NCBI GenBank assembly: GCA_051313645.2
Contig: JBNRSN020000014.1
Location: forward strand, 34,348,001-34,412,000
Source of the DNA: Centroscyllium fabricii
Lineage: Eukaryota
Length of the DNA: 64,000 nucleotides
Direction: 5' to 3'
The notes beneath the pieces were generated by a model, which searched no databases, was not told the origin of the DNA, and worked only from the letters and a program-made list of their open reading frames with translations. Made by a program: the position numbers and the translations under genes. Within the stretch, counting starts at the first letter, position 1. The number at the start of each line of letters is the position of its first letter. Below, in pieces: positions 10,268-63,105 of this stretch.

Positions 10268-10317
10268 TATCACAGCACCTTTAATGCCCATTGCCATGCA
10301 GCTGGGAATGGTCTGTG

Positions 10318-10460
10318 GAATAACAACAGAAAATGCTGGAAAAACTCAGTAGGCCAGGCAGCATCGGTGGAGAGAGAAACAGAGTTAACGTTTCGGGTCG
10401 ATGACCCTTCAACAGAACTGGGAGAGGCTTCCAGCATCCGCAGTATTTTGCTATCGTATT
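10318..10460 (-). mobile_element. Mini Penelope-like insertion (family 2) with degenerate hammerhead
   Basis: 11-bp direct repeat aatggtctgtg (10307-10317, 10461-10471). Minus strand agttCTGTTGAagggtcatcgacccGAAAcgttaact. The terminal tip ttccagcatccgcagtattttgct is on the opposite strand. Confidence 0.75.
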
Positions 10461-10721
10461 AATGGTCTGTGTGGTATTGGAGGGAGGGTGACAGTGTGGT
10501 GCTTTGTGTTGCAGGGGTGGCCGGCTGTGTTGTGTGGATTGGCAGTTACTGAGCATGTGCGCCTTTTGGAGCGCGATGTAAAGTATCGGGTTCAAAGGCA
10601 GAGTCTTCATAAAATCAGGCCTTTGAGAGGCCCTGGGATGTTTCCATGATCTGGAGAGCACTGAAGGCAGGGCTAGTCTTCACGTGAATGAACCGTGATT
10701 TTGGTTGCAGAAGAATAACTT

Positions 10722-11715
10722 ACAGAAACATAAGATAGGAGCAGGAGTAGGCCATTTGGCCCCTTGAGTCTGCTCTGCCATTCTGAGATCATGGCTGATC
10801 ATTGAAATTTAGCACCCTGTCCCTGCCTTCTCCCCATATCCCTTTAGCCTTAAGGAATATATCCAACTCCTTCTTGAATGTATTTAATGAACTGGCCTCC
10901 ACCGCCCTCTGTGGTAGAGATTTCCACAGGTTCACCACTCACTGGGTGAAGAAATTCCTCCTCATCTCAGTATTAAATGGCTTACCCCTTATCCTTAGAC
11001 TATAACCCCTGGTTCTGGACTCCCTGGCCATTGGGAACATCCTTCCTGCATCTAGTCTATCCAGGCCTGACCGCAATTTTATAAGTTTCGATGAGATCCC
11101 CTCTCGATCTTCTAAACTCCAGTGAGTATAAGCCCAATCGACCCAATCTCTCCTCGTACGTCATTCCTGCCATCCCAGGTATCAGCCTGGTTAATCTTCT
11201 CTGCACTCCCTTCATGGCAAGAACGGATCCCTGATTCGGACTGCAAGGGACCTATGCTTGACTTCACCAATCTTTTTCTCTTCACATGTCCATAGAAGCT
11301 TTTACATCAGTTTTTATGTTCCCTGAAAACTTACTTTCATAATCTATTTTCCCCCTCTTAATGAATTCCTTTGCTGAATCCTAAACTGCTCCCAATCCTC
11401 AGGTTTGCTGCTCTTTTTGGCCAATTTAAATGTCCTCTCTTTGGATCATATGGTATCCCTAATTTCCCTTGTTAGCCACGGTTGAATCACCTTTTGATTT
11501 TATTTTTGTCAAATTGGGATAAACAAATTCTGTAGTTCATTCATGCGATCTTTGAATGTTTGCCATTGCCTATCCACTGTCAACCCTTTGGAGTGACATT
11601 ACCCAATCAATCCTACCCAACTCGTGTCTCATACCATCATAGTTCCCTTTGTTTAAATTCAGGACCTTGGTCTCTGAGTCAACTACTTCATTCTCCACCT
11701 TAATGAAGAATTCTA
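10722..11715 (-). mobile_element. CR1 family A copy with a large internal deletion
   Basis: 10722-11224 is the 3' end; 11225-11715 is upstream ORF2 (KSF..VKRKRLV..GPLQSES region). Confidence 0.8.
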
Positions 11716-11760
11716 TCTGCTTCATTCTCCATCAAGAAAATGCCGGTAATACTCAGCATA

Positions 11761-13530
11761 AAAACATAGAAGATAGGAGCAGGAGTAGGCCATTCGGCCC
11801 CTCGAGCCTGCTCCGCCATTCAATGAGATCATGGCTGATCATCCAAACTCAGTACCCTGTCCCTGCCTTCTCCATATCCCTTGATCCCTCTAGCCTTAAG
11901 AAATACATCCAGCTCCTTCTTGAATATATTCAATGAACGCGCCTCCACCGCCCTCTGTAGCAGAGAATTCCACAGGTTCACCACTCTCTGGGTGAAGAAA
12001 TTCCTCCTCATCTCTGTCCTAAATGAGTTACCCCTTATCCTTAGACTATGACCCCTGGTTCTGGACTCTCCGATCATCGGGAACATTCTTCCTGCATCAC
12101 GTTTGTCCAGACCAGTTAGAATTTTATACGTTTTGATGAGATCCCCTTTCAATCTTCTAAACTCCAGAGAGTACAAACCCAGTCTACCCAGTCTCTCCTC
12201 ATACATCATTCCTGCCATCCCAGGTATCAGCCTGGTTAATCTTCTCTGCACTCCCTTCATGGCAAGAACGTCCTTCCTTCGATAAGGAGACCAAAACTGC
12301 ACACAGTACTCAAGGTGTGGTCTCAGCAAGGCCCTGTACAACTGCAGCAAGACCTCCCTGTTCCTGTACTCGAACCCTTTCGCTATGAAGGCCAACATAC
12401 CATTTGCCTTCTTAACCGCCTGCTGCACCTGCATGCTCACCTTCAGTGACTGGTGCACAAGGACACCCAGGTCTCATAGTACTTCCCCTTCTTCCAATCT
12501 ATTGCCATTCAGATAATAGTCGGCATTTCTGTTTTTGCCCCCAAAGTGGATAACCTCGCATTTATCCACATTATACTGCATCTGCCACGTCTCAGCCCAC
12601 TTGCCCAACCTGTCCAAATCATCCTGGAGCTTCCTGGTATCCTCCTCGCAGCACACACGCCCTCCCAGCTTTGTGTCATCTGCAAACTTGGAGACATTAC
12701 ATTTAGTTCCCTTTTCTAAATCATTAATGTATATTGTTAATAGCTGGGGTGCCAGGACCGATCCCTGCGGTACCCCACTAGTCACTGCCTGCTACTTGGA
12801 AAAAGACCCATTTACTCCTACTCTCTGCTTTCTGTCCGCCAACCAGTTCTCAATCCAAGTCAATACCTTGCCCCCAATCCCATGTGCCCTAACTTTACAT
12901 GCTAATCTCTTGTGTGGGACCTTGTCAAACCCCTTCTGAAAGTCTAAGTACACCACATCTACTGGTTCTCACTGATCAATTTTCCCAGTTACATCCTCAC
13001 AAAATTCCAGCAGATTAGTCAAGCACGATTTACCTTTTGTGAATCCATGTTGACTTTGTCCGATCCTGCCACTGATTTTCAAGTGCTCAGCTATTACACC
13101 CTTTATTATGGACTCCAGCATATTCCCCACTACCGATGTCAGGCTTACTGGTCTGTAATTTCCCGCTTTCTCCCTACCACCCTTTTTGAATAGTGGGGTA
13201 ACATTAGCCACCCTCCAATCCATGGGTACAATTCCCGATTCCATCGATTGCTGGAAGATAATCAGTAATGCATCCACTATTTCTGGGGCCACTTCCTTAA
13301 GTACCCTAGGATGTAGATTATCAGGCCCTGTGGATTTATCGGCCTTTAATCCCATCAATTTCCCTAACACCATTTCCCTGCAAATACGGATTTCTATCAG
13401 TTCCTCCCTTTCATCAAACCTTATGTTCCCCAATATCTCTGGGGGATTACATGTGTCCTCCTTTGTGAAGACCGAACCAAAATATGCATTTAATTGGTCT
13501 GCCATTTCTTTGTTCCCCATTATCACTTCC
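11761..13530 (-). mobile_element. 5'-truncated CR1 (HER1-like, family A) LINE with most of the RT domain, frameshifted
   Basis: ORFs 12969-13526 (KSTGPDNLHPRVLKE, NYRPVSLTS, QHGF), 12474-12785 (SGVPQGSVL, FADDTK), 11829-12458 (YRALLRPHLEYCVQFWSP). Confidence 0.95.
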
Positions 13531-14074
13531 CCAGCAGCCCCATCAGTCCGTGCAAAAGGAAACGACTGGCCGTCTCCTATTTTTAGATGCTGACAGACCT
13601 GATGTCATTCTAGCATTTTCTATTTTCGCTTCAATTTACAGCATATCTACTTGTTTTTCAATGCCAGTTAGAAGATGCTTACAACCATAATTTTTACAGT
13701 TGTGAAGTACTTCCCAGGAGCATATTCTCATCTGTTGAAATGCTACTTTATAAGGTTTGCAGTGATTTTGTAATTTGTACAGTTCCACTTCTTGGACCTG
13801 GATTTGAGTCTGGAAGTTATTTCCTGTTGAGGGTCTTATTTAGCCGGTTTTATATTTTGATTCAGATTCCAGAAGTCCACAAGTGGCACCCAGTTTTCAC
13901 ACTGTTAAATCCATATTCCATAGCGCAGTGGCAAATTCAGCGATCCAGAGCTCCTAGAATGTGAATGAAGAGCAGCTTTTTCAAAAGAAAGCGGCTCATG
14001 AAATGGCGCTGGGGCGGTTTGCGATCTGAGTTGCTGGTGAACGTGAGCCTTTAGCACCAAATCGGCAATGTCAA

Positions 14075-14203
14075 TCCACCTAGCTTTGATCTTTCTGTAC
14101 ATTGCAACAGTGGCCACACTTCAGAAAGCACTTCATTGGCTGTAAAGCGCTTTGGGATGTCCTGAGGTCATGAAAGGTGCTATATAAATGCAGGTCTTTC
14201 TTT
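14075..14203 (+). mobile_element. Deu/SacSINE1-like SINE 3' tail
   Basis: tacattgcaacagtg...ctgtaaagcgctttgggatgtcctgagg...gctatataaatgcaggtctttctttc; reverse complement of 36975-37080. Confidence 0.7.
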
Positions 14204-14731
14204 CTGTGCCGTGTAGCCGATCTTGGTGGAGTCATTGCTGGAGCTGCTTCTCGTGGCCTCAGTGCCCATTTTATTCAGGGATTGGGTGATGAGGAGGGAA
14301 CGTTCTCGCACCTGTTCGCCATCCAGTGACTCCTAGAATCATAGAAACCTAGTGCACAGAAGGAGGCCAGTTGGTCCATCGTGCCTGTGCTGGAGTTTTG
14401 AAAGGGCAATCATGCTTAGTCCCACATCCCTGCTTTTTGTCCCTAACACTAACTTCCTCATCCTCCAGTATCTGTCCAACTCCCCTTTTTAAAATTATGG
14501 ATGGAATTGGCTTCCGCCACCCATTCAGTTTCCAGATCCCAGCAACTCTTGAGTGGGGGGAAAAAATTCTCCTCATCTCCCCTCGAGATCTTTTGCAGTG
14601 ATTTTCAATCCATGGCCTCTAGTTATTGACCCACTCTCCAGAGGGAATAGCTTTTCTCGATGAAAACTTTTCATCATCTTGAAAACCTCTATTAGGTCAC
14701 CTCTTCACCTTCTCTGATCCAAGTGGAACAG

Positions 14732-15066
14732 AAAGAACAACCGAAAACACTGGAGAATCTCCGCAGGCCAGGCAGCATCGGTGGAGAGAGAAATGGAGTT
14801 AACGTTTCAGGTCGATGACCTTTCTTCAGAACTGGAGAAGCCAGGAGGGGGGTAGATTTTAAAGCTTGTGGGGGCTGGGGAAAGGTGGGGTGGGGGGGGG
14901 GGGGCTGAAAGAACAGGAAAGATCAGCGACAGGCTAGAAGACTGGGAAGATGAGAGACATTAGGAGTAATTCAAGGAACTCTGGATGGGTGTGAACGGCC
15001 TGCTGAGCTTCTCCAACGTTTTCTGTTATTTTGGATTTCCAGCATCTGCAGTATTTTACTATCGCC
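14732..15066 (-). mobile_element. Mini Penelope-like insertion (family 2) with inverted arms
   Basis: Near-TSD agtggaacag/agtagaacag (14722-14731, 15067-15076). Minus-strand subterminal arm, then plus-strand terminal arm ggcctgctgag...ttccagcatctgcagtatttt. Confidence 0.75.
14797..14833 (-). ncRNA. Minimal type I hammerhead ribozyme motif, core intact
   Basis: Minus strand agtt-CUGAAGA-a-aggtc/atc/gacct-GAAA-cgt-t-aact: stem I agtt/aact, stem II, palindromic ACGU stem III as in PLE-associated minimal hammerheads. Confidence 0.7.
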
Positions 15067-16464
15067 AGTAGAACAGTCCTAATGTTTGCAACCTCTCCTC
15101 CTATCTGAATTCCCTCATCCCTGGTAACATCCCAGTATATACCTCTGTACCCTTTCTAAGGCTGTTACATCTTTCCTGAAGTCTGGTGCCCAGAGTTGTC
15201 CACAATATTCCAGCTGAACGTAACCAGTGATTTTCAAGTTCCAGCTCCTGGTGGAAAGAAGTGTGTGGGTTAATGTGTTGGCAATGCTAATCATTAACTT
15301 CCAAAAGGTTTTTGTAAAATCCCATTTATTAGTGTGATTGTCCTTCTTGCTGATCAGTGTATGCTTTTTTTTTTTACGTAGCCTACTTTTGAAGATCCCC
15401 TGTGGCATGTTATTGTGGTGTAGCAATAGAAAGCAGAGGTGATGCTTCATTCACCAGGCTCTCTGGAGACTGACTGTAGCTGATCTGTTCCCCACTGTAA
15501 AATGGAGGCATTATTTGTAGTGTAAATTGATTTGCTTTTGGCCCAGAGGTTCTCCCATGTGGCGTGGCAGGGTCTAGAGACTGGTCTTAAGCAGTGGACT
15601 GGCCTGGTGCAGTTGGGGGAGATGCATCTGCAGTATCACAAGCATGGGCCTTCTGCAGCAGCCAAGATACCAGATGCTGTTGGCTGCTGCTACTGGGTTT
15701 ATGAAGCATGGTGGGGAAGATTGAAGTTGATGAGAGAAGGATGTGGGAGAGTGTGGTGCAGAATTCAGGAATAGGTGGTTGGTGACATGATCAAGTCTGA
15801 GGTCACAGTGATGAGTTGCATATCTTCCATGGCATGACTACTGATTGTGGTTACAATGGGAGTGCTGGTGTGCACACTATTTGAAACTTGTGGCTTTGTA
15901 TGCAGTTTCATTTTTATGGCTATTGAGCTTTGGTTACCCCTAAGCTAGATTCCTTTGAATGAAAATATGGACTAGTAAATGACTGGTGGATAAAAGCAAG
16001 TTACATATATAGGAACAGGAAATATGATGGCAGGTTGTCCATTGACCAAGATGGAAGCAATTTGTGAAACTTGGACTCGAATTGCAGGAAGAGGACACAA
16101 GTACCATGGCCAGAGACTTAAAGAAAATACACAGAAGTGGATATACATTTCTGCTTCAAGTAAAAGCACTTATTGGTATATTAACTCCTTTGGATGAGCT
16201 GTGTAAGTTACTTACTGTAAGAACAAAATGGAAAAAGTGTAAATGTAGACAGAGCTCCAATACTACATGGAACATCATGGTCCTTGTGGTGCTGGGACCA
16301 TGGAATTGTAAATTCTGGAAAGTCATGGTTGAATAATAGAAACATTTGTACAATGCCTTGTATTTCTCAATTGTTTCTGCAGACCTTGAATATGAGTTAC
16401 TTTGAAGTGCAGTTACTGTTATGGGGGCTGTTTTATATTAATGAATATAATGGGTTGTAATAAG

Positions 16465-16655
16465 AACATAACAAATAGGAACAGGAGTCGGCCACACGGC
16501 CCTTTCGAAACTGCTCCACCATTCAATAAGATCATGGATGAACTTCTACATCAGCTCCACTTTCCCGCCCGATCCCTTGATTCCCTTCGTGCCAAAAATC
16601 TATCGATCTCTGTCTTGAATACTCAACGCCTGACCATCCACAGCCCTCTGGGGTA
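16465..16655 (-). mobile_element. Old CR1 family A-like 3' tail
   Basis: aacataacaaataggaacaggagtcggcc...ctgctccaccattcaataagatcatgg. Confidence 0.7.
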
Positions 16656-26580: not shown

Positions 26581-26932
26581 CCGCCGATTATCAAGCGAAC
26601 ACCGGAGCATTGATCATTTGAGGTGATTTAAAGACTATGGTGCAAGAATTTAGATCTATTACTTACTACATTTTGTTACAACATACCCAGCATTTCATCC
26701 CTTTGGCAGATGATTGTGGGAAAGATTGCAGGGACTTTGCATGAGAAATTGTACATTATTCTAGTTTATTGGCAATCTGTTACTAAAACTGTTTTTGTTT
26801 AACTGACCTGACACTCGCTTCACTCTCTCTTTCTCCCCTTTCTGTTTACACAGGCATTCTTTTCGCTCTACTCCACAACCTGATTCAAGCTTACACAACA
26901 CCAGGTTATAGTCCAACAGTTTTATTTGAAAT

Positions 26933-26967
26933 CACAAGCTTTCGGAGCGTAGCTCCTTCATCAGGTG
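26933..26967 (-). ncRNA. Minimal type I hammerhead ribozyme motif, core intact, in the inverted pLTR
   Basis: Minus strand cac-CUGAUGA-a-ggagc/uac/gcucc-GAAA-gcu-u-gug; palindromic AGCU stem III. Confidence 0.75.
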
Positions 26968-28528
26968 TAACTAAGAGAGATTCATTTAAACACAGCATAT
27001 ATAGAGGGAGAGAACAATGTAATCTTTCCAACTGTTCAACAACATCACCTCAGCAGAGAGACATTCAAAGCAATCAAAGGTGTTTTAACATATCAGTCAG
27101 GCACCAGCCTGAGATCAATGAGGTGCAGTCACAAAGGGTCGAATGTTGCAGACTTGTGTCTGTGTGAAAACCCACAGTGATTTAAAAAAAAAAAAGAAAA
27201 GATTTTTCTTACTGGAAATTGCAGCCGCATCCGCGTAGTGAGGACGAGCCAAAGATGACTGGAGTCTGGATGACTCTACGTCCGGCGGGGTCACATGTAG
27301 CGTGACATGAAGCCAATATCATGGTTGATGCCGTGCTCATGAGTGTGGAACTTGGCTATCCGCCTCTGCTCGACGATTTTGCGTTGTCGTGTGTCTCGAA
27401 GGCCACCTTGGAGAGAGATGCAGGAAAGCAGACAAGATCCCAAAAGGACCACGGATCACGAACCCACTCAAGTCGGCCTACAACACAGACTACGCTGAGA
27501 GACTCTGCCGCCGTACCTCTTGCAAACTCCTCGACCAACTGGTACACCAGCTCTACAGCAGACGCCGCAACCTCGAAACCAAGATAGAGTCCATGTTCTC
27601 AGCCTGTGCCCAGGACACAGCAGACCAGCTACGAGACACCGCCAAACAGACGAGGCAATGGAACTACACTGCCTACATGCATACCAAGAACAGTAAGCTT
27701 GAGAAACTCTGCATCACCACCAGCAGCAACCAAGCCTCCCCCGGTACTACGGTTGAAACCGCAGGGAAATCCATCATCAACTTGTCCGACCACACCCTTC
27801 AACCAGATGAAATCGAAGTTCTCAGCCGAGGGCTCAATTTCTGCCCCACCACCAAAATGGACCCCATCGGTCTCGCGGCAGACACAGGAATTCATCAGGA
27901 GAATGAGGCTCCGGGAATTCTTCCACAGATCCCAAGAGGTCAGCAGCAAACCCAATGAGACAATCAATGATCCAGAACAGCAGACCGAGGGATCCGCAGT
28001 GCAGCAATCGAAAGAATCAAATTGGACCCCTCCAGAGGGCCGCTGCCCTAAGTTGACATGTATGCTCAAGCTGTGAGGAGATGCATCAATGTCAGATTCA
28101 TCAGCCGCACTCGCAAGACTGCCCAGAATGTCACCCGAGCACAACGCAACACCATCCGTGCTCTCCAGACCAACTGCAACATCGTCCTCAAACCAGCAGA
28201 CAAGGGAGGAGCCATCGTCCTACAGAACAGAATGGACTATTGCAAAGAAGCATACCGACAACTGGACAACCAAGAACACTAGTTACCCACAGATCCGACC
28301 AAGGAACACACCCGCCAACTCAACCGACTGATCAAGACCTTCGATCCAGACTTTCAGGGCACCCTGCGTGCCCTCATCCCACGGAATCGCCGCATGGGCG
28401 ATTTCTACTGCCTCCCAAAGATACACAAAGCCAACACACCTGGACACCCTATTGTATCAGGGAACGGAATCCTGTGTGAGAACCTCTCTGGATACATCGA
28501 GGGCATCCTGAAACCCATCATACAGAGA

Positions 28529-28850
28529 GCTGGTGTTTCTGCACTTGTAGTCCATGATGGACTACAAGTGCAGAAACACCAGCCCCCCCCGACCAGCGAT
28601 GCCTCCCTACCGGAGGAACTCAACAACTTCTACACTCACTTCGACAGGGACAACAGGGAGCCTGCCACCAAAGTCCTGCAATCCCCGGAAGACCAGCCAT
28701 TAACACGGTCCTCCTCCGACGTAAGAGGTGCTCTACGTGGAGTGAACGCACGGAAGGCCGCGGGTCCTGATGGCATCCCCAGCCGGGCACTCAAAGAATG
28801 TGCCGACCAACTGGCTGAAGTCTTCACCGACATCTTCAACCTGTCACTGT
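28529..28850 (+). mobile_element. Rex1/Babar RT fragment nested in the PLE
   Basis: DASLPEELNNFYTHFD...VNARKAAGPDGIPSRALKECADQLAEVFTDIFNLSL in ORF 28394-28888. Confidence 0.85.
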
Positions 28851-28921
28851 GCAAACTCCACACAGATAGTACCCGAGGCTGGATTTGAACCCGGGTCTCT
28901 AGTGCTGTAAGGCAACAGTGC
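28849..28921 (-). mobile_element. HE1-like SINE head fragment nested in the PLE
   Basis: tgtgcaaactccacacagatagtacccgaggctggatttgaacccggg..., as in the other SINE copies. Confidence 0.85.
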
Positions 28922-29951
28922 CGTCATCGTGGGGGATACTGGTGTAGAGTGCTGAGACGTCCATCGTGGCGAGGAGTGTTCCTGGTTCAACTGGTCCGTG
29001 GGTGCTGAGATTCTGTAAGAAGTCTGTAGTGTCGCGACAGAAGCTGGGGGTTCAATTCAATTCAAGTTTTATTGTCATTGCGTACCGGAGTTGTTTTTAT
29101 ATATCCCCACGCCTCCACTACTTGCCTTCAAACAGCCGCCTAACCTCAAACAGACCATCGTTCGCAGCAAATTACCCAGCCTTCACGAGAACAGCGACCA
29201 TGACACCACACAACCCTGCCACGGCAACCTCTGCAAAACATGCCAGATCATCAGCACAGATACCATCATCACACATGAGGTCACCACACCAGGTACATGG
29301 TACATACTCATGTGACTCGACCAACGTCGTCGACCTCATAAGTTGCAGGGGGGGATGCCCCGGAGCATGGTACATCGGCGAGACCATGCAGACACTACGA
29401 CAACGGATGAACGGACACCGCACAACAATTACCAGGCAGGAGTGTTCCCTCCCAGTCGGGGAACACTTCAGCAGTCAAGGACATTCAGCCTCCGATCTTC
29501 GGGTAAGCATTCCCCAAGGCGGCCTTCAAGACACGCGACAACGCAAAATCGTCGAGCAGAGGCTGATAACCAAGTTCCGCACTCATGAGCACGGTCTCAA
29601 CCGGGATCTTGGCTTCATGTCGCGCTACATGTGACCCTGCCTGATGTAGAGTCATCCAGACTCGAGTCGTCTTTGGCTTGTCCTCACTGCGCGGATGCGG
29701 CTGCGATTTCCAGTAAGAAAAATCTTTTTTTTTGTTAAATCATTCTGTGGGTTTTCTCACACACACCAGACTGCAACATTCGACCCTTTGTGACTGCACC
29801 TCATTGATCTCAGGCTGGTGCCTGACTGATGTGTTAAAACACCTTTGATTGCTTTGAATGTCTCTCTGCTGAGGTGTGATGTTGAACAGTTGGAAAGATT
29901 ACATTGTTCTCTCCCTCTATATATGCTGTGTTTAAATTAATCTCTTTGTTA

Positions 29952-29986
29952 CACCTGTTGAAGGAGCTAAGCTCTGAAAGCTTGTG
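29952..29986 (+). ncRNA. Hammerhead motif copy in the 3' pLTR, core mutated (CUGUUGA)
   Basis: cac-CTGTTGA-aggagctaagctct-GAAA-gcttgtg; paralog of 26933-26967. Confidence 0.6.
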
Positions 29987-30658
29987 ATTTCAAATAAAAC
30001 TGTTGGACTATAACCTGGTGTTGTGACTTCTTACAATTGTCCACCCCAGTCCAACACCGGCACCTCCACATCATGATTCAAGCTTGCACTCTTCTATTTT
30101 GCCTCTTTGCATCTGTACTTTATATTAAAAAATCCTGATCTCTGCCTCCAAGGTTTGGCATCCTTTCCCTTACCCATTCCTATTATTTCCCTCATTTGTG
30201 AAGCCCCACGGATTTTTTTAAGTTGAAGTGCTATGTAATCAAGTTGTATACATTATATCTCCGCATTCCTTTTAACTTAATACTGGATGGTCCCATGTTT
30301 TCTCAGCGTGTCTAATACTGTACTTTGCATTTCTTACCGTTAAGAACTGTACTATGTTTCTTCCGATTTGTATAACTGATCGAAATCCTTAGCAAACCTC
30401 GTGCTGTGTATGTGTCAGAGCTGGAAGGGCACAGTGTATGGTTGGTGTTGCTATGCATCAATATGACAAAGATGGATAGCACCAATCCATTTTGTGCTAT
30501 TTTTCCAGCTCCTGAAGACCGAAGTGCTTTTGTCGTGTTTGAGATGTCAGCCTTTGGGTTCCTCTATTTCTTGACTTTTTTGAAAAGTCAGCGCAGGAGT
30601 GACTGGGTATTTGCTTTCTCTTTAATAACCTGCATCAGGCACTGCTCTTGCTTGAGGA

Positions 30659-33625: not shown

Positions 33626-33653
33626 TTATAGATTACTCTCTTTGTCTCTTCAG

Positions 33654-42027: not shown

Positions 42028-42078
<51 letters not shown>

Positions 42079-42360: not shown

Positions 42361-42399
42361 CTTTACTCTGTGCTCTATACAACAACAGTGATGGCTTGC

Positions 42400-44181: not shown

Positions 44182-46218
44182 TACTCCCTTTTTTTTGTAC
44201 CTTGGCTGGGCTGTGGTGGTGCTGCAACTGGTACCTGTGCTCGACTGTTCTGGCTGTGTCCCAGCATTCTATTAGCTTTAATTGCTTCCCCACATTGTCT
44301 GGATATTGGAAGTGAGATATCTACTACTCTCCGCTCGCTGTGCTCATTCAGTTCTGTATGCTTATATCCTTTTTTTACATATAATCTGTTAAATTCCATC
44401 ACCATCAATATGCCCTACTTTTATATTGGCAAATATGACCATCTAGCTATTACTTTACTTTTCAGGCGATCTGTGCGGATTAGAAATGATCAGGTTTAAC
44501 CCCTCGGAGGTATGCTGTTCTTTTAAACTTGTTTCACTTCCAGTCCCATGTGCAGAGATTAATCATCTCGGGTGCCCCATTTTCAAGCCATGCCTATAGG
44601 ATGTGACTTCCTGTATAGCAGGGTGCATGGACCCTGTTATAACTGTTTTGTGGCGTATGTAGCTTTTCTTCATTTCAGTTAGGCAGGTTGGCATTCTGCC
44701 CTCTGCTCATCCAGTGTCCGCAAGTCTTTGTTTGTGGACTCAATCTGGAATCCTTCCCAGACCAAGAAATTGTTTTTGAGAAGAGAAGAAAAGACAAACC
44801 GGGGCTTGTTCCAGACTTGAGCCCCTTCCTCCATTCTACACGTGCACACTGCTTCATCTATTGGCTCAAATGGTTGGCAGTGAGGAGGCCTCAAACCTCC
44901 TATAGACAGGCGGCAATGCGCACACACTGGCGTCTATGTTCTGTGGCTGGTTTATGTGGGGCACAGGTACAGCAGTGCCAGTTTGAGTAGGTGGCATAAA
45001 TTAGAGCCACTGCGCTCTCCCATGGGCAGACGGGAGTTTGGAGACTGTGCCCTCCAGCTCTGCCCACTTGAGAAATGGTCACTTAGACCCTTTACTGTTT
45101 TTTTTGAAATTGCAGTAAGTTATTGAAATGCATGTTTAAATGTGTGATCTGTAGTGTACTTTATCTCATTGGTCCTCTGACTAGGACCCTGCCACATTAT
45201 TTAGTAATTCTTACCGATCGCGTCCCTAATGGTGATGTTGCTTTTGACACAGTCTATGTTGAGATTTTCTTTTGCAGGGTGGATTTGGCAGTGAGTGTGC
45301 AGCAGAATATAGTAGTCATTAGCTTGTAGATTCCTCAATGTTTTTTGGGTGGGGGAGGGGAAGGGGATTCTGTGCAGACCAGCAGTGACAAAAGCACATT
45401 TCCATCCAGCTAGTGGCAGCACTTTGTGACGACTTGGGAGTTTCTAACCCTCAGTTGGGCTGCAAGTACTCGGATGGGTTACCTGTCGTGGTTTAGAGCT
45501 GGGGTGTCCAAACTGCAACCTGTGGGCTGCATGTTACCCTTGAGGCCTGTCTGTTTGTGTCAGGAAGCCCTGGCAGCTCTGCTTCTATTTACATTAATAT
45601 TTCTTGCTCTGCTGGTTCCCCTGTTTACCAAGCAGTGCACCAAAGGGTTCAGGTGACATTAAAAACAACTTTTCAGTATTTTCCTCAACCGATTTGTTCC
45701 TATTAGCAAGTAGTTATGTGAAAATCAAAGAATGAAAATGTAAATGTTGTACGTGGCCCGCAGGGGTCCATGGTATACAGCTCATTAAGATGAAAACTTT
45801 GGTTCGTTAGTGCTAACTTTGAAATTTGGGGAGAAAACACATCATCTCTGAGCCAGGCAGATTAGAAGTTTGTTTGCAATGAATTAGCTGATCTTAATGG
45901 GGCAATGGTTTGGGTGCTGTTGCAGAGGGGATCTGCTGCTGTGTTGTCGTCGTGCGGGGTGCAGCCGTTGTGTGGCTCGAGGTGGACTCTGGTGGTGCAG
46001 AGTGGAGGAGTCGTGCAGGGTTTCTGTTGTGGGGCGAAGCTCGTTCTCCCTTGCTGAGCTGGTATGACCTTCAGTCACGTGAATTGCCGCTGAATGTGAG
46101 AATGAATTTTGGGAATTACAAGGAAATTGATAGCCTGGCTGTTCAAGGGCGGGTTTGTCAGGTTTGCAAACAAACAGCAATTCAGATTGTGGTTGCTTCC
46201 TCACCTGCAGTCTCATGA

Positions 46219-46314
46219 TGTGGAGGTGCCGGTGTTGGACTGGCTACGCTCCGAAAGCTTGTGATTCCAAATAAAACTGTTGGACGAAAACCTGGTGGTG
46301 TGTGACTTCTTACA
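46219..46314. mobile_element. 96-bp mini Penelope-like insertion (family 1)
   Basis: 12-bp TSD gcagtctcatga (46207-46218, 46315-46326). Inverted tip tgtggaggtgccggtgttggactgg (reverse complement of 30046-30070) joined to forward subterminal ctacgctccgaaagcttgtg...cttcttaca. Confidence 0.85.
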
Positions 46315-47707
46315 GCAGTCTCATGAATCATTCAGTTGAGCCTTCAGACCTGACTCAACGAACTAAGCTGTACTTTGTGTTTTATTTAGCTTCTTTACTC
46401 CTCTCTGCTGTTTGCACATATGTGGCTGCAGCAAACAGTCACTCCACAACCTCCAGTGAGTGCAGCGCAGCCACTCCAGAGTGACTACAGAGAACACTGG
46501 CTGATATTTCGGAACCGAGTTAACCAAGACAAGCTATTCAGCTTTAAAGGAAACGGCTGAGAGGGGTCCTCGGGGAGCTGTGCAACATGGTATACTGTAT
46601 AGGAAAGGGAATTCTGGAAAAATATTTCACACTGTAGGGAAATGGGGCATAGGGTCAAAGTCGGGAAAGGCAAGTAAAGGACTGAGGCTGGGAAATTCTT
46701 CACCGAACAATTGTCACATGGAGAAGGCTTTTGGCCCCTAACCGCCCTGTCGAAGCCTGTCCCTCCAGTCCCCTAAATCTTCCATTACAGTATCTCGATG
46801 CATTTGAATGTCTTCAGTGATGGGTTTTTTGGTCTCCATGACCTTGACTGGTAGATTACTTCCCGTTTAAGTATAAACAGTTCTTCATAATTTTGGTATT
46901 AAAAAATATTTGAAGTCCCTTGCTCTTGCTTCCCTGACGTTCATTTCCCTTCAAGCTCCCGCCCCTCCCATTACCCGATCTACTGGGTCTCGCCATCAAT
47001 CCTGCCATAACCTCGCACTACCCTACCCCACCCATCTGTCCCAGCACATGCCTTCTAACACTAACCCTTTGTTCTCCTTCATTGTTGGTGGTCGGTCCTC
47101 CTTCAGCTACTGTGGCTCAGCCCCTGGGGCTTCCTTCCTGATTTCCAGAGCATTCTAAAGACCTTTTCACTCCCTTCTCTTCCCTCCCCTTCTACACATG
47201 TATTGCCCTGTAACGTACTTTGCTGTTTCTTTTGCCCATGGGGAATGTTGTAGAAATGTAAGTTGGTACAAGTTCTGGGTTTACCTTCTAGCCGATTTAG
47301 ATGGAACAAATTGCTTTTGTTGACCCTTTCATATGCTCAGGCCATCTCTTTGCATTCCCAGCCAATGCATTACTTTGAAAGTGCAGACACTATTGGGCAG
47401 GTGCAAACAGCCGCCAGTTTGAGCTCAGTGAGGTCTCACAAGCTGCAGTGAGATGAATTTAGTATTTTATATACCTGAAGTTCCCATCCCCACATCTTTA
47501 CAGACATTCCCTCCAGACTGTACTGCTGGAGATTTTTAACCTCGCATAGCTCATCCCTGCACTCTTCGGATCAGTCTTGTTGCTCTTTGTACCCTCTTTG
47601 ATGTATGTTAGGTTGTGGCATAGAGACCAGAACGGAACTGAACCCAGAGCTGGAGTATGATCTGCCCAGTGCATTGTAAAGCCCCAGTATAGCTCTAGAC
47701 TTGCACT

Positions 47708-47794
47708 AAATAACAACAGAAAACGCTGGAAAAACTCAGCAGGCCAGGCAGCATCGGTGGAGAGAGAAACAGAGTTAACGTTTCAGGTTGATGA
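47708..47794 (-). mobile_element. 87-bp mini Penelope-like insertion (family 2) inside an old CR1 remnant
   Basis: Exact 15-bp TSD ctctagacttgcact (47693-47707, 47795-47809); truncated within hammerhead stem II. Confidence 0.85.
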
Positions 47795-48460
47795 CTCTAG
47801 ACTTGCACTGTCTGGCTATATATCCCGACATCCTGTTTTTTAAATTGCTTCACCACATTGTCTCAATGCCAAAGGTGATGAGTCCATTGTAACTCCCAGG
47901 CTCTTCTCACTTTCACTAGGAATATCCAGTTTCACTAGTTTTCTTTGCCCCAGGCAATAGCTCATGAGAAGAAATCCTGGGTATAGTATTTAGGCGTGAA
48001 GTATCCTCTGCTGGGCTTTGCCTGTGAATTCTTCCTCCTTCATCCCACTGGTTACACCATACCCAGCTCTCAGCCCCTGCCAATGCCCACCTGCTTGACA
48101 CTGGTGAGGTGGGGGAGAAATCAATTACAAGTAGCTGTGTTTTGCACACACAGACAGCAGAGGCTATGCTTTTTAAAACTATCACAAATGGACACCAGTA
48201 ACCGTAGAGTGGTTACAATGTTCCCTTGGTCCGACTTCCTTGATCGGCCTCAAAGTTTGTGATTACACTGGACGAGAGTTCCTGCATTGAGAACACAGAT
48301 TGTGCAACCTCCTCTCCTGCAACACAAAAAAAACTTTCACCTGCTGTATCGGTTTGCTTTATTCTCTCCTTTCACGAACTGTTCTATTTCCTTAGCTGTG
48401 CTGTTTCATGTTGCCTCTCGCAACAAGCCTGTTCCCACCACAAGTACAGCTGATTCCTTG

Positions 48461-56500: not shown

Positions 56501-56966
56501 GGAGGTCTGGGTCACTGAATGCTGCTGCCCAATGTTGCAGTAAATGTGCAAATGCTGCACTGTTGGAATAAGATTGACTGTTCTTGAATTGATTGGAGAA
56601 GGTTTATTGCTGAACTCTCTGCCCTTCACTCTGCTATCGCAGTGATCACCTTTGTGCTGTGACACTTCAACCTTCCTGCTGACGGTTTTCCAATTGCTGG
56701 CTTACTTTGGATCGGGCAACATGGCATCTGTGTGCCAGCTCACTGCATCTATAATCGCTTCAGTTCTGCCATCGGAGTCGGGGAGTCAGCTTAGAGTGTG
56801 AAATCCATGATGGCCAAGAGGCATTGCACTGATTGTGAATTAAGACAGTTATGGTGCAGGCCTGAATTGGGCTTTCTGTAATTGTCTGCTTTTTCCAAAG
56901 CACTTGAAACCGTATTCCATACCCCTACTCCTGAAACCCTCTGACATACCCCCATCCCAATATAAT

Positions 56967-57687
56967 GGCCCAGACATTCGGGTCCCAACGTGTGAGTACG
57001 CGCTGGGTACTCGCCCGTAGGCCATCCAAGGTGCCGGTTTCGTGCATGCACAGCGCATGTGCGCGAAACCGGCACTTCCGATCCCCTGACAGAAGGGTTC
57101 AGGGGTTGAAACGCGGCAGCGGGTGCGCACTGCACTTCCGATTTTTTTGGAAGATTCTGTGTCCGGGTAAGTATGGAAAAGTTACGGCTGCTTTTTGAAT
57201 GTGTAAAGACTGGTTTTCAGAAGGTAAGTGGTGAATTAATTCAAATTAAAACACTTTCCACAGATTTATTATTTTTAAATAATTTAAGAAAGGTAAGTTT
57301 ATTTTTAGCCCTGTTCAAAACTGTAATTAATTTTTTCAAAAATTTAAATTATTGTTTAAAAGTTATTTAATGTAATTGGTAGTTATTTTTAAAAATGTGA
57401 TTTTTAAAAGTTTATTGGAAGGTTTTGTGATGTTTTGGGGTTGTAGTATTCATACGTTTGACACTGTCAAACTTATGAATGGAGCATTCTGTGCTCCAAT
57501 TGGCTCTCCATGGCCCACGTGATCCCTCGCACTAACTGGGCCACGGACACGTGAGCGCGGCACACCGGCAGTTGAAGGCCCTGCATCGGAATTCCACGCG
57601 GGCCCACAGCTCAACAGCCGGCGCGCTAGGTAAATGCAGGTTGGAGGCTTGCACTCGTGGGAAGCCTCCAACCCGAATTTCTGGGCC
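56967..57687. mobile_element. Non-autonomous DNA transposon, ISL2EU/PIF-Harbinger-like
   Basis: TIR GGCCCAGACATTCGGGT / ACCCGAATTTCTGGGCC (1 mismatch), flanked by AT on both sides; GC-rich subtermini and AT-rich core. Confidence 0.7.
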
Positions 57688-57806
57688 ATTGTCTGAAGCA
57701 CCGTTTCATGCATTGATATCCCGTGTGACAATCACCTGTTGTGCTCCCTCTCGCGCCCCCCCATCTCTCTTCCCCTCCTCCTCTCTTTTCCCCCCCCCCC
57801 CCTCCT

Positions 57807-58199
57807 CACGGTGGCACAACGGTTAGCACTGTTGCCTCACAGCACTGGAGACCCGGGTTCAAATCCAGCCTCGGGTACTATCTGTGTGGAGTTTGCACAT
57901 TCTCCCCGTGTCTGCGTGGGTTTCCTCCGGGTGCTCCGGTTTCCTCCCACAGTCCAAAGATGTGCGGGTTAGGTTGATTGGCCAGGATAAATTGACCCTT
58001 CGTGTTAGGGGTTTGAATATGTGGGGTTACGGGGGATAGGGTGGGATGTGTGTCAGTGCAGGCTCGATAGGGATCGAGGGATATGGGGACAAGGCAGGGG
58101 CGGGATGCTGGGTTTGGATGATCAGCCATGATCTCATTGAATGGTGGAGCAGGCTTGAAGGGCCGAATGGCCTACTCCTGCTCCTATCTTCTATGTTTC
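57807..58199 (+). mobile_element. HE1-like SINE, long-tail type, inserted in a C/T-rich tract
   Basis: Matches 8007-8402 along its length. Confidence 0.9.
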
Positions 58200-59180
58200 C
58201 TCTCTCCCCTCCTCCTCCTCTCTCCCCTCCTCCTCCTCTCGCCCACTATGTCTTGCCCGGTTGCTGACTCTAGAGCGCCTCTTGATTGTCTGATATGCCA
58301 GCATCGCACCTCTCGGTGCCCCTTTTTCACTACCCTCATGTTCACTTGTATCTCTGCATCCCATTGCTCCACTCTGCTTTTATCACTAACCCCCCCTGGT
58401 TAGGTGGGTGCAGCAGTTTCAGCACCCCACTATGCATCCTCTGCCCCCATTCTCAGCTCATTGTTTATGGTTCCTTCTCCCCTGTTTTGTTGCCACTGCT
58501 GTTTTTGGGAGCTTGCTGCTGGTGCAATCCTACATTACAAACAGTGACTCAACTCCTAAAGTGCCTCAGGACATCCTGAGGTGCTATATAAATGCAACCT
58601 TGGTTGCTCGCTGCCCCCTCATCTTGTGCTCTTTGCCTCCTGTTCAGTGTGCGTGCCTCCTTGTCCCCCCCCCCAACATGGTGCTCACTGGTGGTTCGTG
58701 TGTGTGTGGGGTCTTGCCTAATCCGAACCCAGCACCCCTCTCCCCCGATACCCCCAACTGTAAGAACTATATCTCTCACACATACTCATGGGCAATTTCT
58801 TTTTATTTTATTTTTTTAACTTTTTTTACTATCCAATTCACCTAACCTGCATCTCTTTGCCACATAACGCTTCATCCTCTTGCAGTACAAACCACAAGTT
58901 TAAAGAGAAGGCCTGTCTCCTGGATCAGGACAGAAGGTATCTGATAGCTGGGTGGAGGCACAATGCTGTAACACAACCAGTGCTTCAGATGATGTAACTA
59001 CAAGAACAAAGCTTGAGTGACAGCAGACTGTGAGATTACACTTCGTTTATGCCACTTGGAAGTGTGCCCTTATCATGTGACCTGTGTCCCTGAATAAGAT
59101 ATAAACAAATTAAACTGTAAAAATGTCCGCAAGTAATGTGCACCATCAGGGCCTTGGTTCGGAAGTACAGGATTGGAGGA

Positions 59181-59537
59181 TGAGCTTATCTTCATGGCCT
59201 GATCTCCGTTTAACAGGAGGTGGGTGATGCACGATCAATTACTGCGAGTCCAGGAGAAAAGTAACTGAGGCTTTTATTGACAAGAACAGGAGTACAGGTC
59301 TAGGTGATAGCTGGTCCTGGCAATGCCATGCGGTCAACATGGCTGCCACCTTTATACCTGAGTATGTGGGTGGAGCCAGGAGTAGGGGCTGGGTGGAGCC
59401 AGGAGGAGGGGCCGGCTGAGGCCTCCCAGGTAGACCAGACGTGACCCTGTACAATACAGTGAACTATTTACAATACAGGCAAGAGTGAACTATGTACAAT
59501 ACAGATTGGTGGTAAACAATAATAATGGTTTACCACA
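59181..59537 (-). mobile_element. Probable solo LTR
   Basis: TG...CA ends (same ..accaca end as the 8691-9127 LTR), near-TSD gagga/gtgga, minus-strand TATAAA (about 59350) upstream of AATAAA (about 59275), internal tacaatacag repeats. Confidence 0.55.
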
Positions 59538-60241
59538 GTGGAGTGAGATTGTGTGTGGACAGTACCTCAGTTCACTGGGAGATGGGGAGGTTATGTTGAG
59601 TTCAGAAGCTGCCCATCCAAACATTACTAACTTTCCATGTGAATAATGGTCGTGGCCATGTTCTTATCGTCTCAGATCAGGGCGTTATCACTCTCTTGCT
59701 GCAGACATCCTCAGAACTACCCTCTCACTCTGAACTCTGTGTCCAGAGCAGTGATCCTAATATTTCATGCAACTGCTTCCTGGGCTTTAGTTCCTGTTTA
59801 AACTGAGTGTATCTGGTGTTAAATCCAGTCAGTAGTTTTGGACTTCCTGATGTGGTGTTGGGTTTGGCAGGGGCTGACTGGACTGTGTGGCTGGATGGTG
59901 ATTCACAGTAAAAACCCAGCTTCCTCGTCATAAGTGCCAAAGGGAAAAAACACTTGAACACCCCTCAACGTTCATCCAGTGTTGTAGTCGAAGGCCACGA
60001 AGGCTTAATATTTTCCAACTGTTAGTATCCAACTTAGGATCTAGGAAACAATTGTGGAGCCGTCCTTTTTCCTGTTTTCTGAGGCTCCACAGTTTGTTTT
60101 TAACTTTTGTGCTTGTTTCTCCGCTGTTCAGTCCTGTTTGTTGAACTTTTCCTCACATCCAGCCAGGCTTCTGCTATAGAAGTAATGCATCTTTTCTGAG
60201 GGAACTAATATGGGCACAGATCTGGGAGACGACACCATGTT

Positions 60242-60551
60242 ATCATAGAATCACTGCAGAGCAGATAGAGGCCATTTCGGCCCATCGAGCCTGCACTGAC
60301 ACATATCGCACCCTATCCCCGTAACCCCCACATATTTAATCCCCCTAACACTAAGGGTCAATTTATCATGGCCAATCAACCTAACCTGCACATCTTTGGA
60401 CTGTGGGAGGAAACCGGAGCACCCGGAGGAAACCCACGCAGACACGGGGAGAATGTGCAAACTCCACACAGATAGTACCCGAGGCTGGATTTAAACCGGG
60501 GCCCTGGCGCTGTGAGGCAACAGTGCTAACCACTATGCCACCGTGCCGCCC
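60242..60551 (-). mobile_element. HE1-like SINE, short-tail type
   Basis: Full head and V-domain; tail atcatagaatcactgcagagcagatagaggccatttcggccc. Confidence 0.9.
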
Positions 60552-61815
60552 ATATGTTCAAGGACTTTGAGAGGGAAGCGAGGTTGAGATGAGTTAGTAG
60601 TTGGTGAGGATCGAGGAGACATGGTTAGGTTATTTAGAGAGAGGAATTATGGCAGTTTTGAGTGAAGCGACCAGTGCCTGAGGAGAGTGAGCCATTTAAA
60701 CCAGGAAGGGTCGTTGGGTGGTCAGAAGTTTGGTGGGAATAGGTTTGAAGGGAGTAGGAAGGGTGAGTCTTGGATGTAAGTTGGGACATGGTGGAGGGGC
60801 AATGGGGTGGTGGGGGGGGGGAATGGGGGGGTGGGGGGGGTGGAGGAGGAGAGTTGCGATTCAGGGCTATAGTGGGAGGGAGGCTGGGATTTGTCGCTAT
60901 TTCCTATCTGTACCGTGCCCTAATATTACACAGCATAAAACACACTCCATAGACTCAACCCAAGTTTGGACACAGGATCTCTAATTGTATTACTGGATGT
61001 TTTTCCACTGTTCTTGTGCACGCTGTGCTGTTAAGTTCACACACCGACTATTGTGCTTTTCTGAAATCCTAGTGCTAACACTGGCTTTGCCTGACTGGGT
61101 AGTCTTGTGGAGCATCTCAGCTGGGATATTGTGGAATTTCATGAATTTGTTTTTCAGGCAGTTTTAATCTTTGTTGATTTCTGATTGTAGTCATTTCTTT
61201 GATTGATTAACCACTTTAGGTCATTGGAAGTGAACTGTTTGAATGCTCATCATTTCATGGGAGGAAGAGTAAACACACTGCAAACACTGGGGAGCGTGTC
61301 CAGGGTTTGGATTTTGGTTCGGCCAGCACAGACCTGCTTGGAGCAGAATTCCACTGCCCTGGTAACGCTCTGTACTGTCTGCACTCCAGGCTGGGCACCA
61401 GCTCCTGGGAGGGTGCTGCAGTTTACTTGCATTTGACTGAAATTTGAGGATCCAGCTTGGATGTATATCCTACCCAGGAACATAATGGGCATGTCTGAAA
61501 CACGCTCCATCCAGGCCTTTCATTGGATTTCTAAAAGACCCTGCCAAACCTATCTCTACTGTGGGTGCACTGATTTGTGGCTGTTTGACAATGACTGTGA
61601 ATGGGAAGGGGTGGGGTGCTGAAGGTGGAGATGACCTGCTTGATGGGCTTGAGTAAAATGAAAACAATATAGTAAGACCGATTAGCCCTTGGTGAAACTG
61701 GTCAAAATCCTTGCTAGGATAGTACTTAGCAAAACCTGTATCTGGCCGTGTGCTATTCAACTGGGCGAGATATAAATTATTCAGCTGTAATCAAACCAAT
61801 AGTTTCATGTACAGC

Positions 61816-61964
61816 AGCATATAATAGCAAAATACTACGGATGCTGGAAATCTGAAATAACAACAGAAAATGCTGGAAGGGTCCAGAACCCGAAACGTTA
61901 ACTCAGTTTCCCTCTCCATGGATGCGGCCTGGCCTGCTGAGTGTTTCCAGCATTTTCTGTTGTT
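61816..61964. mobile_element. Mini Penelope-like insertion (family 2), inverted tip plus forward arm
   Basis: Near-TSD gtttcatgtacagc/gtttcatgtatagc (61802-61815, 61965-61978); inverted arms caacagaaaatgctggaa / ttccagcattttctgttg. Confidence 0.8.
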
Positions 61965-63105
61965 GTTTCATGTATAGCGTCTGGCCAACCGCTTGCTCAG
62001 CGATGCAGATCACGGTGTGCAAGTGTGTGTGTGATTCTGCGTAACATGGGGAGAAAGGAATTGTGACTGAACTCGTAAAGGGGTGGCACTTGTATTGATC
62101 GAGTGTGCTGCAGACAGTTCATGGGATTGTCTCCCTGTTCCAGTGCTGATATTAAGCTGCCTCTGGTTCACGTACTGTCTTTGGGCTAGCTGCACATGAG
62201 CTCCTTGCTAAGGCCATCAGGTTTCAGGTGTGAAATTTCATACTGCTTAATGGTCAAATCAGCATTTTGAACCCAGGCATTAAGCTTCATGTAATAGCTC
62301 CAGTCTCCATACTGAAATATTGCTGTGACTCTGCGCTGTAGACCCTAGTCTGTGCAGAGTGTGTGGATTTCCCCACCCCGCCAGATTAGGGAGGGGGGAA
62401 TTTCCCGTCTGTTCTTGCTTAAAGCGGCCTGTGTGGGGTTATGGCTGAAGACAGGATCAGACTTGGCGGTGGTATTTAAGAGAGCTCATGGTGATTGGCC
62501 ATTTGAGCAAGGTGCCTGTGGGACCTGAGGCCAGGGAGAGCTGGTGCTGTTGGGAGAGGCGGGGAGAAAATTGCTGCGTGCGTGGTGCTATTTAACCTGT
62601 CTCATCCACTGACTTTTTAAAACCTATATAACAAAGGGTTGCAGTGTTTCAATGTGGCAAGAGGAAATGAAAGGTCTGTTCTAATTATACTCTGCGACAT
62701 CAACATTGTGGAAAAGATCCACTCCAGAAGGTTTCTGATCAGTTTGATTTGGTTTTAAATGCTGCAGCTGGGAATTCAAAATGTGAAGTAGATTTTTTTT
62801 TTGTTGGCTACCATTTACTATTGTGGTATTTACAAGGTGCAGACTTGGGATGGGTTTCAGTGAACCCGAGACTAATTGTATCCTAGATGCTCTTTCCCCC
62901 CCCCCCCCCCCCCCCCCCAAATCTAGTCCACAATATGTTCCCTGACTAGTATTGTGGCAGGAGGTACTTTGGACCACTGGCTGTCAGGATATTGAAGCAC
63001 TCCAGAGTACGGAGATCTGGTCAGAAATAAACCCTTGGAAATGGTCACATTAAATTGGAAGGAGACCTTATAGGTAGGGGATGATGAGCAAGTATTGTCC
63101 TGTTC

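What the first reader, a model, noticed from the sequence alone, without database searches (positions are those of the whole stretch)
10307..61978. TSD-flanked mini Penelope insertions share an inverted-tip architecture around hammerhead-bearing ends
Seen: five insertions of 87-335 bp (10318-10460, 14732-15066, 46219-46314, 47708-47794, 61816-61964) from two different PLE families, each flanked by a 10-15 bp direct repeat. Four of the five join the extreme 3' tip on one strand to the subterminal, hammerhead-containing segment on the other strand, so both outer ends are element 3' ends. The 3.2-kb copy at 26893-30073 has the same layout. Known: PLEs carry minimal hammerheads in their pLTRs and often have inverted pLTRs. 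Inference: integration is primed at both target nicks, one end at the tip and one at a fairly fixed subterminal point, so even ~90-bp RNA ends integrate. This may be a retrozyme-like non-autonomous class or a visible signature of PLE twin priming.
Basis: partly seen in the sequence, partly recalled or inferred. Interest (0 to 1): 0.7.

Follow-up and report, generated by a model that had tools for sequence, protein, structure and literature searches.

The report
Two-ended mini Penelope retrotransposon insertions
These short insertions are real, dead-end copies of two ordinary Penelope-type jumping genes in a layout already described; what they add is that the two ends almost always use two different fixed points of the element, and many copies stop at its predicted RNA start, which likely records copying from both cut DNA strands.

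Summary
All five insertions and the 3.2-kb copy have 10-16 bp direct repeats. Two of the five sites were checked in three related organisms and are empty there. Only 2 of 5 minis keep the hammerhead core. They are stubs of two protein-coding PLE families, not a separate retrozyme class. The layout (inverted pLTR, one-sided 30-40 nt tail, TSD) is published, and two RT start sites plus extension of both strands were shown in vitro (PMC11167929). In 279 de-duplicated genomic copies, 71 of 73 TSD-flanked two-arm insertions pair a tip end with an inner end; none pairs like with like. The two arms share subfamily variants. About 43% of arms that reach a predicted start of transcription stop there. 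That segment is also the 5' end of the coding unit. Best reading: twin priming on one RNA, with run-off at its 5' end (inferred, about 0.55). My six paper searches did not find this reading in print. This scan has noted the same thing many times on other DNA (134 notes in 14 or more genomes).

The parts
10307..10317 (+). TSD of mini 1 (second copy 10461-10471), 11 bp exact
10318..10428 (-). Mini 1, family A inner-ended arm (about -147 to -36 from the tip), hammerhead core variant CUGUUGA
10429..10460 (+). Mini 1, tail-only tip arm (-31 to -1); does not overlap the other arm
14722..14731 (+). TSD of mini 2 (second copy 15067-15076), 10 bp, 1 mismatch
14732..14994 (-). Mini 2, family A inner-ended arm, runs well past the predicted RNA start; core CUGAAGA complete; inner boundary approximate
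14997..15066 (+). Mini 2, tip arm (-75 to -4)
26881..26896 (+). TSD of the long family B copy (second copy 30074-30089), 16 bp, 1 mismatch
26897..27414 (-). Long copy, inverted inner-ended arm of about 520 bp (ends about -50); core CUGAUGA complete
27415..30073 (+). Long copy, tip-ended arm: 5'-truncated, broken PLE ORF (N-terminal part, GIY-YIG-like end at 29278-29583), 3' pLTR and tail ending at the ORF start codon sequence; interrupted near 28527-29075 by foreign repeat pieces
   Evidence: tblastn of family A endonuclease, E 4e-11
46207..46218 (+). TSD of mini 3 (second copy 46315-46326), 12 bp exact; site empty with one copy in organisms B, C, D
46219..46243 (-). Mini 3, family B tip arm (-29 to 0), tail only
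46243..46314 (+). Mini 3, inner-ended arm starting in hammerhead loop II (about -105 to -40); no core
47693..47707 (+). TSD of mini 4 (second copy 47795-47809), 15 bp exact; site empty in organisms B, C, D
47708..47794 (-). Mini 4, family A single inner-ended arm (about -127 to -36); starts in stem II, no core, no tip arm
61802..61815 (+). TSD of mini 5 (second copy 61965-61978), 14 bp, 1 mismatch
61816..61878 (-). Mini 5, family A tip arm (-60 to -2)
61877..61964 (+). Mini 5, inner-ended arm (about -129 to -39); no complete core

Best explanation
These are TSD-flanked stubs of two protein-coding Penelope-like retrotransposon families whose two outer ends sit at two fixed points about 35-40 nt apart, likely because the element's enzyme primes copying at both target nicks, once from each point, on one RNA. 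Shown here: real insertions with 9-17 bp TSDs; one tip end and one inner end; arms that share subfamily variants; 5' ends that pile up 5-15 nt upstream of the hammerhead core; and the same segment lying at the 5' end of the coding unit. Shown in vitro for another PLE: both strands cut and extended, and two internal RT start sites bounding the tail. Inferred: the staggered nicks are 10-16 nt apart; each nick takes a different start site; when the start sites used are those next to the RNA's 5' end, both cDNAs can be at most about 90 and 130 nt long and run off at the transcription start (predicted from TATA-like and initiator-like motifs); the two cDNA ends are then joined by end joining. The minis are by-products of the autonomous element, not a family that spreads by itself.
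For: End pairing: tip+inner in 53 of 55 (B) and 18 of 18 (A) TSD-flanked two-arm copies, 0 tip+tip, 0 inner+inner; in loci not chosen by an end, 41 of 42 and 8 of 8. Real insertions: empty orthologous sites for minis 3 and 4 in three related organisms; of 95 TSD-flanked copies, 27 had paralogous flank matches, 23 of them showing one copy of the repeat exactly and 2 within 3 nt. Neither arm is a copy of the other: minis 1 and 3 have non-overlapping arms; in 19 of 48 family B pairs the inner arm reaches over 10 nt further 5' than the tip arm, which alone has the tail. One template: arms differ at 42 of 438 polymorphic cells within an insertion against 46% between insertions (B), 12 of 59 against 48% (A); 5' ends correlate in B (rho 0.68, n 48). 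Stop point: 50 of 115 B arms and 30 of 69 A arms that reach the window stop in it, 3.8 to 6.9 times (B) and 2.8 to 4.8 times (A) the rate on either side; 47 of 115 B arms stop within 7 nt of the predicted initiator against 13 of 152 at the predicted ribozyme cut, 23 of 65 against 8 of 81 in A. The tip runs on into the coding unit: in 12 of 14 other loci found with the B ORF start a direct pLTR ends at the same place, at the ATG; in 2 of 25 loci for A the tail reads in frame into the ORF. Literature: PMC11167929 (abstract and main text to the start of Methods), PMC2377424 (passages: the transcript starts inside the upstream pLTR).
Against: No RNA evidence for the start site: it rests on motifs (TATATA about -159 and TCACTTC about -130 in B; a weaker TTTAAAA and CCAGTTC about -138 in A, with no TATA-like word in the young A subfamily). 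The stop windows were chosen after seeing the data, and arm ends come from profile alignments that can overshoot by 5-15 nt at junctions. In D. virilis the 5' end of helix I is a splice acceptor (PMC4209133) and the start site lies about 120 nt upstream of it (PMC2377424); family A's site also reads as an acceptor. More than half of the arms that reach the window pass it, so longer templates are used too. Within-insertion differences at polymorphic cells (9.6% B, 20% A) exceed background (4.7%, 8.0%), so some insertions may use two templates. 5' ends do not correlate significantly in A (rho 0.33, p 0.33, n 11). In vitro, RT start site did not appear to differ between strands (PMC11167929), so the pairing rule is not explained by that work. 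16 of 20 two-arm B copies and 15 of 33 A copies without a TSD call were not classed by this test; a few look like like-with-like pairs (L162, L117). Mini 4 has no tip arm.
Confidence: 0.55

Rival explanations
1. Twin priming is right, but the stop near -130/-138 is not the transcription start: it is a structural or protein barrier at the 5' strand of hammerhead helix I, or a splice acceptor.
For: The stop coincides with helix I in both families. Family A reads YnCAG|TT there. The D. virilis intron ends at the 5' end of helix I (PMC4209133, passage) and its promoter is TATA-less with the start upstream (PMC2377424, passages).
Against: Family B has no AG at that point in the aligned copies but has TATATA about 30 nt upstream of an initiator-like word. 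No common upstream-exon sequence was seen by eye at the junctions printed (not tested formally).
Confidence: 0.18
2. Minis are remnants of long copies: recombination between the two direct pLTRs of a full-length insertion, or internal deletion of a long inverted repeat, leaves a solo pLTR plus the inverted arm between the original TSDs.
For: L215 has a short inverted arm next to a direct pLTR starting at -132 and running into the ORF; losing the ORF would give the common 200-230 bp form. Empty sites do not exclude this.
Against: Minis are not more diverged than long copies (B 0.025 against 0.019, p 0.25, n 23 and 39; A 0.035 against 0.051, p 0.87, n 12 and 32; low power). Tail-only tip arms of 21-45 nt would need recombination over very short repeats. 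Short inverted arms that stop at the same point already sit on long copies (L205, L215; tail-only arms in L293, L295).
Confidence: 0.12
3. One nick is primed; the cDNA folds back and copies itself, and the endonuclease trims the second arm at the inner point (self-priming of PMC3846280; endonuclease resolution of the tail in PMC8557442).
For: Explains shared variants and correlated 5' ends; some junctions sit on palindromes, such as L086 at TATATA.
Against: Cannot make non-overlapping arms (minis 1 and 3) or an inner arm longer than the tip arm (19 of 48 B pairs). Single inner-ended copies with TSDs exist (mini 4; 8 in A and 3 in B).
Confidence: 0.1
4. The minis are a retrozyme-like non-autonomous class that is transcribed, self-cleaves and spreads as a unit.
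For: High copy number (51 insertions in 800 kb taken blind), TSDs, hammerhead-type motifs; animal retrozymes derive from pLTRs (10.64898/2026.07.22.740005).
Against: Junctions differ between copies. The recurring 74-bp-spaced pair in family A has identical flanks, so it is one insertion copied inside a larger repeat (L183/L198). 3 of 5 minis lack the core. Copies that stop at the predicted start lack the TATA-like word. Ends do not pile at the ribozyme cut. That preprint defines retrozymes as tandem units each with a complete hammerhead.
Confidence: 0.04

Closest known systems
Inverted-pLTR-plus-tail insertions of endonuclease-positive PLEs (Adineta Pen2a, PMC3846280; Fig. 2 legend of PMC8557442; passages read)
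   Same: Head-to-head inverted 5'-truncated arm, a 30-40 nt tail on one end only, TSD, pLTR that holds the start of the ORF.
   Different: Here whole insertions are 87-335 bp with no ORF body; TSDs are longer (mode 12-14 against 8-10 in those examples); the solo pLTRs described there had no TSD.
Anole Poseidon PAc in vitro (PMC11167929; abstract and main text read, supplements not opened)
   Same: Two internal RT start sites bounding the tail; both strands cut and extended; product length set by the template's 5' end; ribozyme cleavage not needed.
   Different: That work saw no strand difference in start site and in the text read did not describe a tip+inner pairing rule, inverted products or mini insertions. 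In PAc the starts lie at about +111-118 of the ORF; in family B the tip is at the ATG. Its supplements (Fig. S2) may bear on this and were not seen.
L1 twin priming (recalled, no call)
   Same: Both target nicks prime on one RNA and leave an inverted 5' part.
   Different: In L1 the second priming is at a variable internal point and arms do not overlap; here it is at a fixed point and arms often overlap over 90 nt or more.
Non-LTR (animal) retrozymes (10.64898/2026.07.22.740005; parts 1-3 of 5 read)
   Same: Short, non-coding, pLTR-related, type I minimal hammerhead.
   Different: Retrozymes are head-to-tail tandem units each with a full hammerhead; these are single inverted stubs, mostly with a cut-off core.

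Membership tests
Endonuclease-positive PLE | C-terminal GIY-YIG endonuclease in the family ORF | tested here: met
   Family A: Pfam PF01541, E 3e-06, above the cut-off. Family B: five window frames gave no Pfam hit, but tblastn with the A domain matched 29278-29583 at 38% identity, E 4e-11.
Endonuclease-positive PLE | pLTR: the 3' end sequence recurs just upstream of the ORF in partial tandems | tested here: met
   B: 12 of 14 other ORF-start loci. A: 2 of 25 loci, 0 of 18 and 0 of 25 in two earlier sets of 5'-truncated copies.
Endonuclease-positive PLE | Optional 30-40 nt tail at one end | tested here: met
   3' ends bimodal in blind samples; tip+inner in 71 of 73.
Endonuclease-positive PLE | Minimal type I hammerhead in the pLTR | tested here: met
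   Core pattern with stem II and a palindromic helix III in both families; no Rfam match; cleavage not testable.
Endonuclease-positive PLE | Telomerase-like RT by phylogeny | not tested
   No RT tree was built; no Pfam RT hit in the window's broken frames.
Neptune clade | Zn-finger-like motif between RT and endonuclease | tested here: inconclusive
   CxxxxCxxC seen in both families. The feature is from PMC8557442 (shared with Nematis); its exact form is recalled; no tree.
Non-LTR retrozyme | Head-to-tail tandem units | tested here: not met
   Single or head-to-head arms in all five.
Non-LTR retrozyme | Complete hammerhead in each unit | tested here: not met
   2 of 5.
Non-LTR retrozyme | Circular RNA, self-cleavage | not testable with these tools
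   No RNA run was available to lay.
Non-autonomous family spreading as a unit | One junction shared by independent sites | tested here: not met
   Junctions printed for 59 two-arm copies differ; repeated ones share flanks.

The most novel reading that the evidence does not exclude
PLE integration is an obligately asymmetric twin-priming reaction: a protein dimer holds one RNA and primes the two target nicks at two different fixed start sites, and because those sites also sit 90-130 nt from the RNA's 5' end, the element mass-produces strong-stop-like mini insertions (roughly 100,000 in this genome) that map its transcription start. This would account for the tail, the inverted pLTR and the TSD in one step.
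Probability: 0.4. Interest if true: 0.62.

Novelty: new member of a known kind. Interest (0 to 1): 0.38.

Why it matters
How Penelope-like elements, the closest mobile relatives of telomerase, make their inverted ends and one-sided tail is still open; PMC11167929 calls the later steps unvalidated. These stubs are a very large natural data set that constrains the mechanism: one tip end and one inner end, same template, a preferred stop point. Each constraint can be tested with the existing in vitro system. For genome annotation, they should be filed as truncated PLE copies, not as new ribozyme elements or MITEs.

Tried and rejected
Rfam scan: no hammerhead family matched. Folding of eight segments gave no special signal except mini 5, whose two arms pair (z -4.75). 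Ribozyme cleavage as the source of the 5' ends: rejected, the pile is about 35 nt upstream of the predicted cut. The 74-bp-spaced pairs in family A looked like a fixed mini family; the two inspected (L183/184, L198/199) share flanks. A guessed pattern for an ATG right after the family A tip found 16 matches with no shared continuation except duplicates; A's ORF probably starts inside the pLTR. Hidden tiny tip arms in one-arm copies: 2 of 20 in A (control 1 of 100), 0 of 12 in B (control 5 of 60), so not general. Target-site composition looked alike at both ends (C before the TSD in 30 of 55 and 32 of 55 B sites), but the longest-TSD rule biases that base, so it is not used as evidence. No RNA holder listed. 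Orthologous sites of minis 1, 2, 5 and the long copy remain unchecked, and none of the five minis had a paralogous host among my loci. The genome search holds no relatives of this genome. Paper searches found no description of PLE twin priming or of mini insertions stopping at the start of transcription; the library lacks most subscription papers.
Full report
OBSERVATION. All five insertions and the long copy are at the stated places, each between direct repeats of 10-16 bp. Four belong to family A and one, with the long copy, to family B. Taking the hammerhead strand as sense and the far end as position 0, the arms are (tip arm; inner arm): mini 1 -31..-1; -147..-36. Mini 2 -75..-4; past -229..-34. 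Mini 3 -29..0; about -105..-40. Mini 4 none; -127..-36. Mini 5 -60..-2; -129..-39. Long copy about 2.65 kb; about 520 bp ending near -50. The hammerhead core pattern is complete in only 2 of 5 minis, and Rfam does not detect it.

WHAT THE FAMILIES ARE. Family A copies extend into an ORF with a GIY-YIG domain (Pfam E 3e-06), and the long B copy matches that domain (E 4e-11). Both have a CxxxxCxxC linker, which suggests Neptune; no tree was built. One exact 19-20 nt word occurs 50,244 times for A and 78,285 times for B in the 7.2-Gb genome. Eighty 10-kb stretches taken blind hold 21 A and 30 B insertions, 14 of them TSD-flanked and at most 240 bp long, which scales to roughly 100,000 minis. In 12 of 14 other loci found with the B ORF start, a direct copy of the terminal segment ends at the same place, and its tip is the ATG of MATIDTTNC.... 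In A, 2 of 25 loci show the tail reading in frame into the ORF. The 'element 3' end' is therefore also the 5' end of the coding unit, as published for other PLEs (PMC3846280, PMC11167929).

REAL INSERTIONS. Contigs of organisms B, C and D skip 108 bases at mini 3 with 12 bases fitting either side, which is the insert plus one repeat. At mini 4 one run skips 102 (insert plus one repeat) and two skip 115 with two other letters, so the site is empty there too, with a small extra loss. Among 95 TSD-flanked copies, 27 had flank matches in paralogous repeats: 23 show a single copy of the repeat exactly, 2 within 3 nt, 1 only a filled paralog, and 1 is a within-locus artefact. The repeats did not pre-exist. 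Minis 1, 2, 5 and the long copy were not checked against relatives.

ENDS. Profiles of the two termini were run over the window and 275 loci (1.46 Mb); 327 hits with a 3' end in the last 60 model positions fell to 279 after removing edge hits and shared flanks. TSDs run 9-17 bp (mode 12-13 in B, 14 in A), with 4 false calls in 400 controls. Of TSD-flanked two-arm copies, 53 of 55 (B) and 18 of 18 (A) pair a tip end with an inner end; 2 pair a tip with another point; none pairs like with like. In loci not chosen by an end the counts are 41 of 42 and 8 of 8. Twenty two-arm B copies and 15 A copies had no TSD call and are outside this count.

ONE TEMPLATE, TWO PRIMINGS. The two arms of one insertion agree at subfamily-variable positions (differences 42 of 438 against 46% between insertions in B; 12 of 59 against 48% in A; background 4.7% and 8.0%), and their 5' ends correlate in B (rho 0.68, n 48) but not significantly in A. 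A fold-back of one cDNA would give this too, but it cannot give arms that do not overlap (minis 1 and 3) or an inner arm longer than the only arm with the tail (19 of 48 B pairs). Two primings on one RNA, or on sister RNAs from one source locus, fit all of it. This step is inferred.

WHY SO SHORT. Arms stop far more often in a narrow window just 5' of the hammerhead core: 50 of 115 B arms reaching -123..-140 and 30 of 69 A arms reaching -126..-147, at 3.8-6.9 and 2.8-4.8 times the flanking rates (windows chosen after seeing the data). The pile is not at the predicted ribozyme cut. In B it falls on TCACTTC about 30 nt after TATATA; in A on CCAGTTC, with a weaker upstream word that the young subfamily lacks. 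D. virilis Penelope starts transcription inside its pLTR (PMC2377424, passages), and in vitro the product length follows the template's 5' end (PMC11167929). If RT uses the start sites next to the RNA's 5' end, the cDNAs cannot exceed about 90 and 130 nt, which matches the cluster of B inserts at 198-228 bp. No RNA data test this, and a barrier or splice acceptor at helix I remains a live rival. Minis are not detectably older than long copies (low power), which weighs mildly against decay from long copies.

WHAT IS KNOWN. The inverted arm, the one-sided 30-40 nt tail and the TSD are the standard PLE layout (PMC3846280, PMC8557442; passages). Two RT start sites bounding the tail, extension of both strands, a predicted dimer and no need for ribozyme cleavage are in PMC11167929 (main text read, supplements not). 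Minimal hammerheads in pLTRs are in PMC4209133 (passages). Retrozymes are tandem units with full hammerheads (10.64898/2026.07.22.740005, parts 1-3 of 5); these minis fail that test. Six searches did not find the pairing rule or the stop at the predicted RNA start in print. This scan has noted such stubs often (134 notes in at least 14 genomes; 33 notes fitting in this genome), some with the same reading; those are unchecked AI notes, and my reading was written down before I saw them.

VERDICT. A real feature; the smallest form of a known PLE insertion; not a new element class. Its value is as a quantitative constraint on an unfinished mechanism. Interest 0.38.

Noticed in passing
window 28527-29075: The long B copy is interrupted by a near-perfect 59-bp palindrome (28527-28585), a short non-LTR RT-like frame and a 74-bp piece of a repeat family found four times in the window. 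The ORF also lacks much of its RT region there.
   Followed up: no
   Followed up: partly
G000:C689:8253-113334: A family A ORF piece recurs at about 13.4-kb spacing at least eight times, so a PLE copy sits inside a large tandem unit.
   Followed up: no
L156-L159 (G000:C1:247.5-247.8 Mb); L183/L198; L179/L182/L187: Single mini insertions copied onward inside larger repeats or duplications; these mimic a fixed mini family.
   Followed up: partly
L215:2021-2127: A 107-bp family B mini with an 11-bp TSD inserted into the ORF of another family B copy.
   Followed up: partly
L121: One long B copy has an inverted arm ending at about -441, not at the inner point, which looks like L1-type variable second priming.
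   Followed up: no
L195, L200: Tip arms of only 8-13 nt next to the TSD in two apparent one-arm family A copies.
   Followed up: yes
family A terminus: A young family A subfamily, and some B copies, fix CUGUUGA in place of CUGANGA in the hammerhead core, which would be expected to weaken cleavage (recalled consensus).
   Followed up: no
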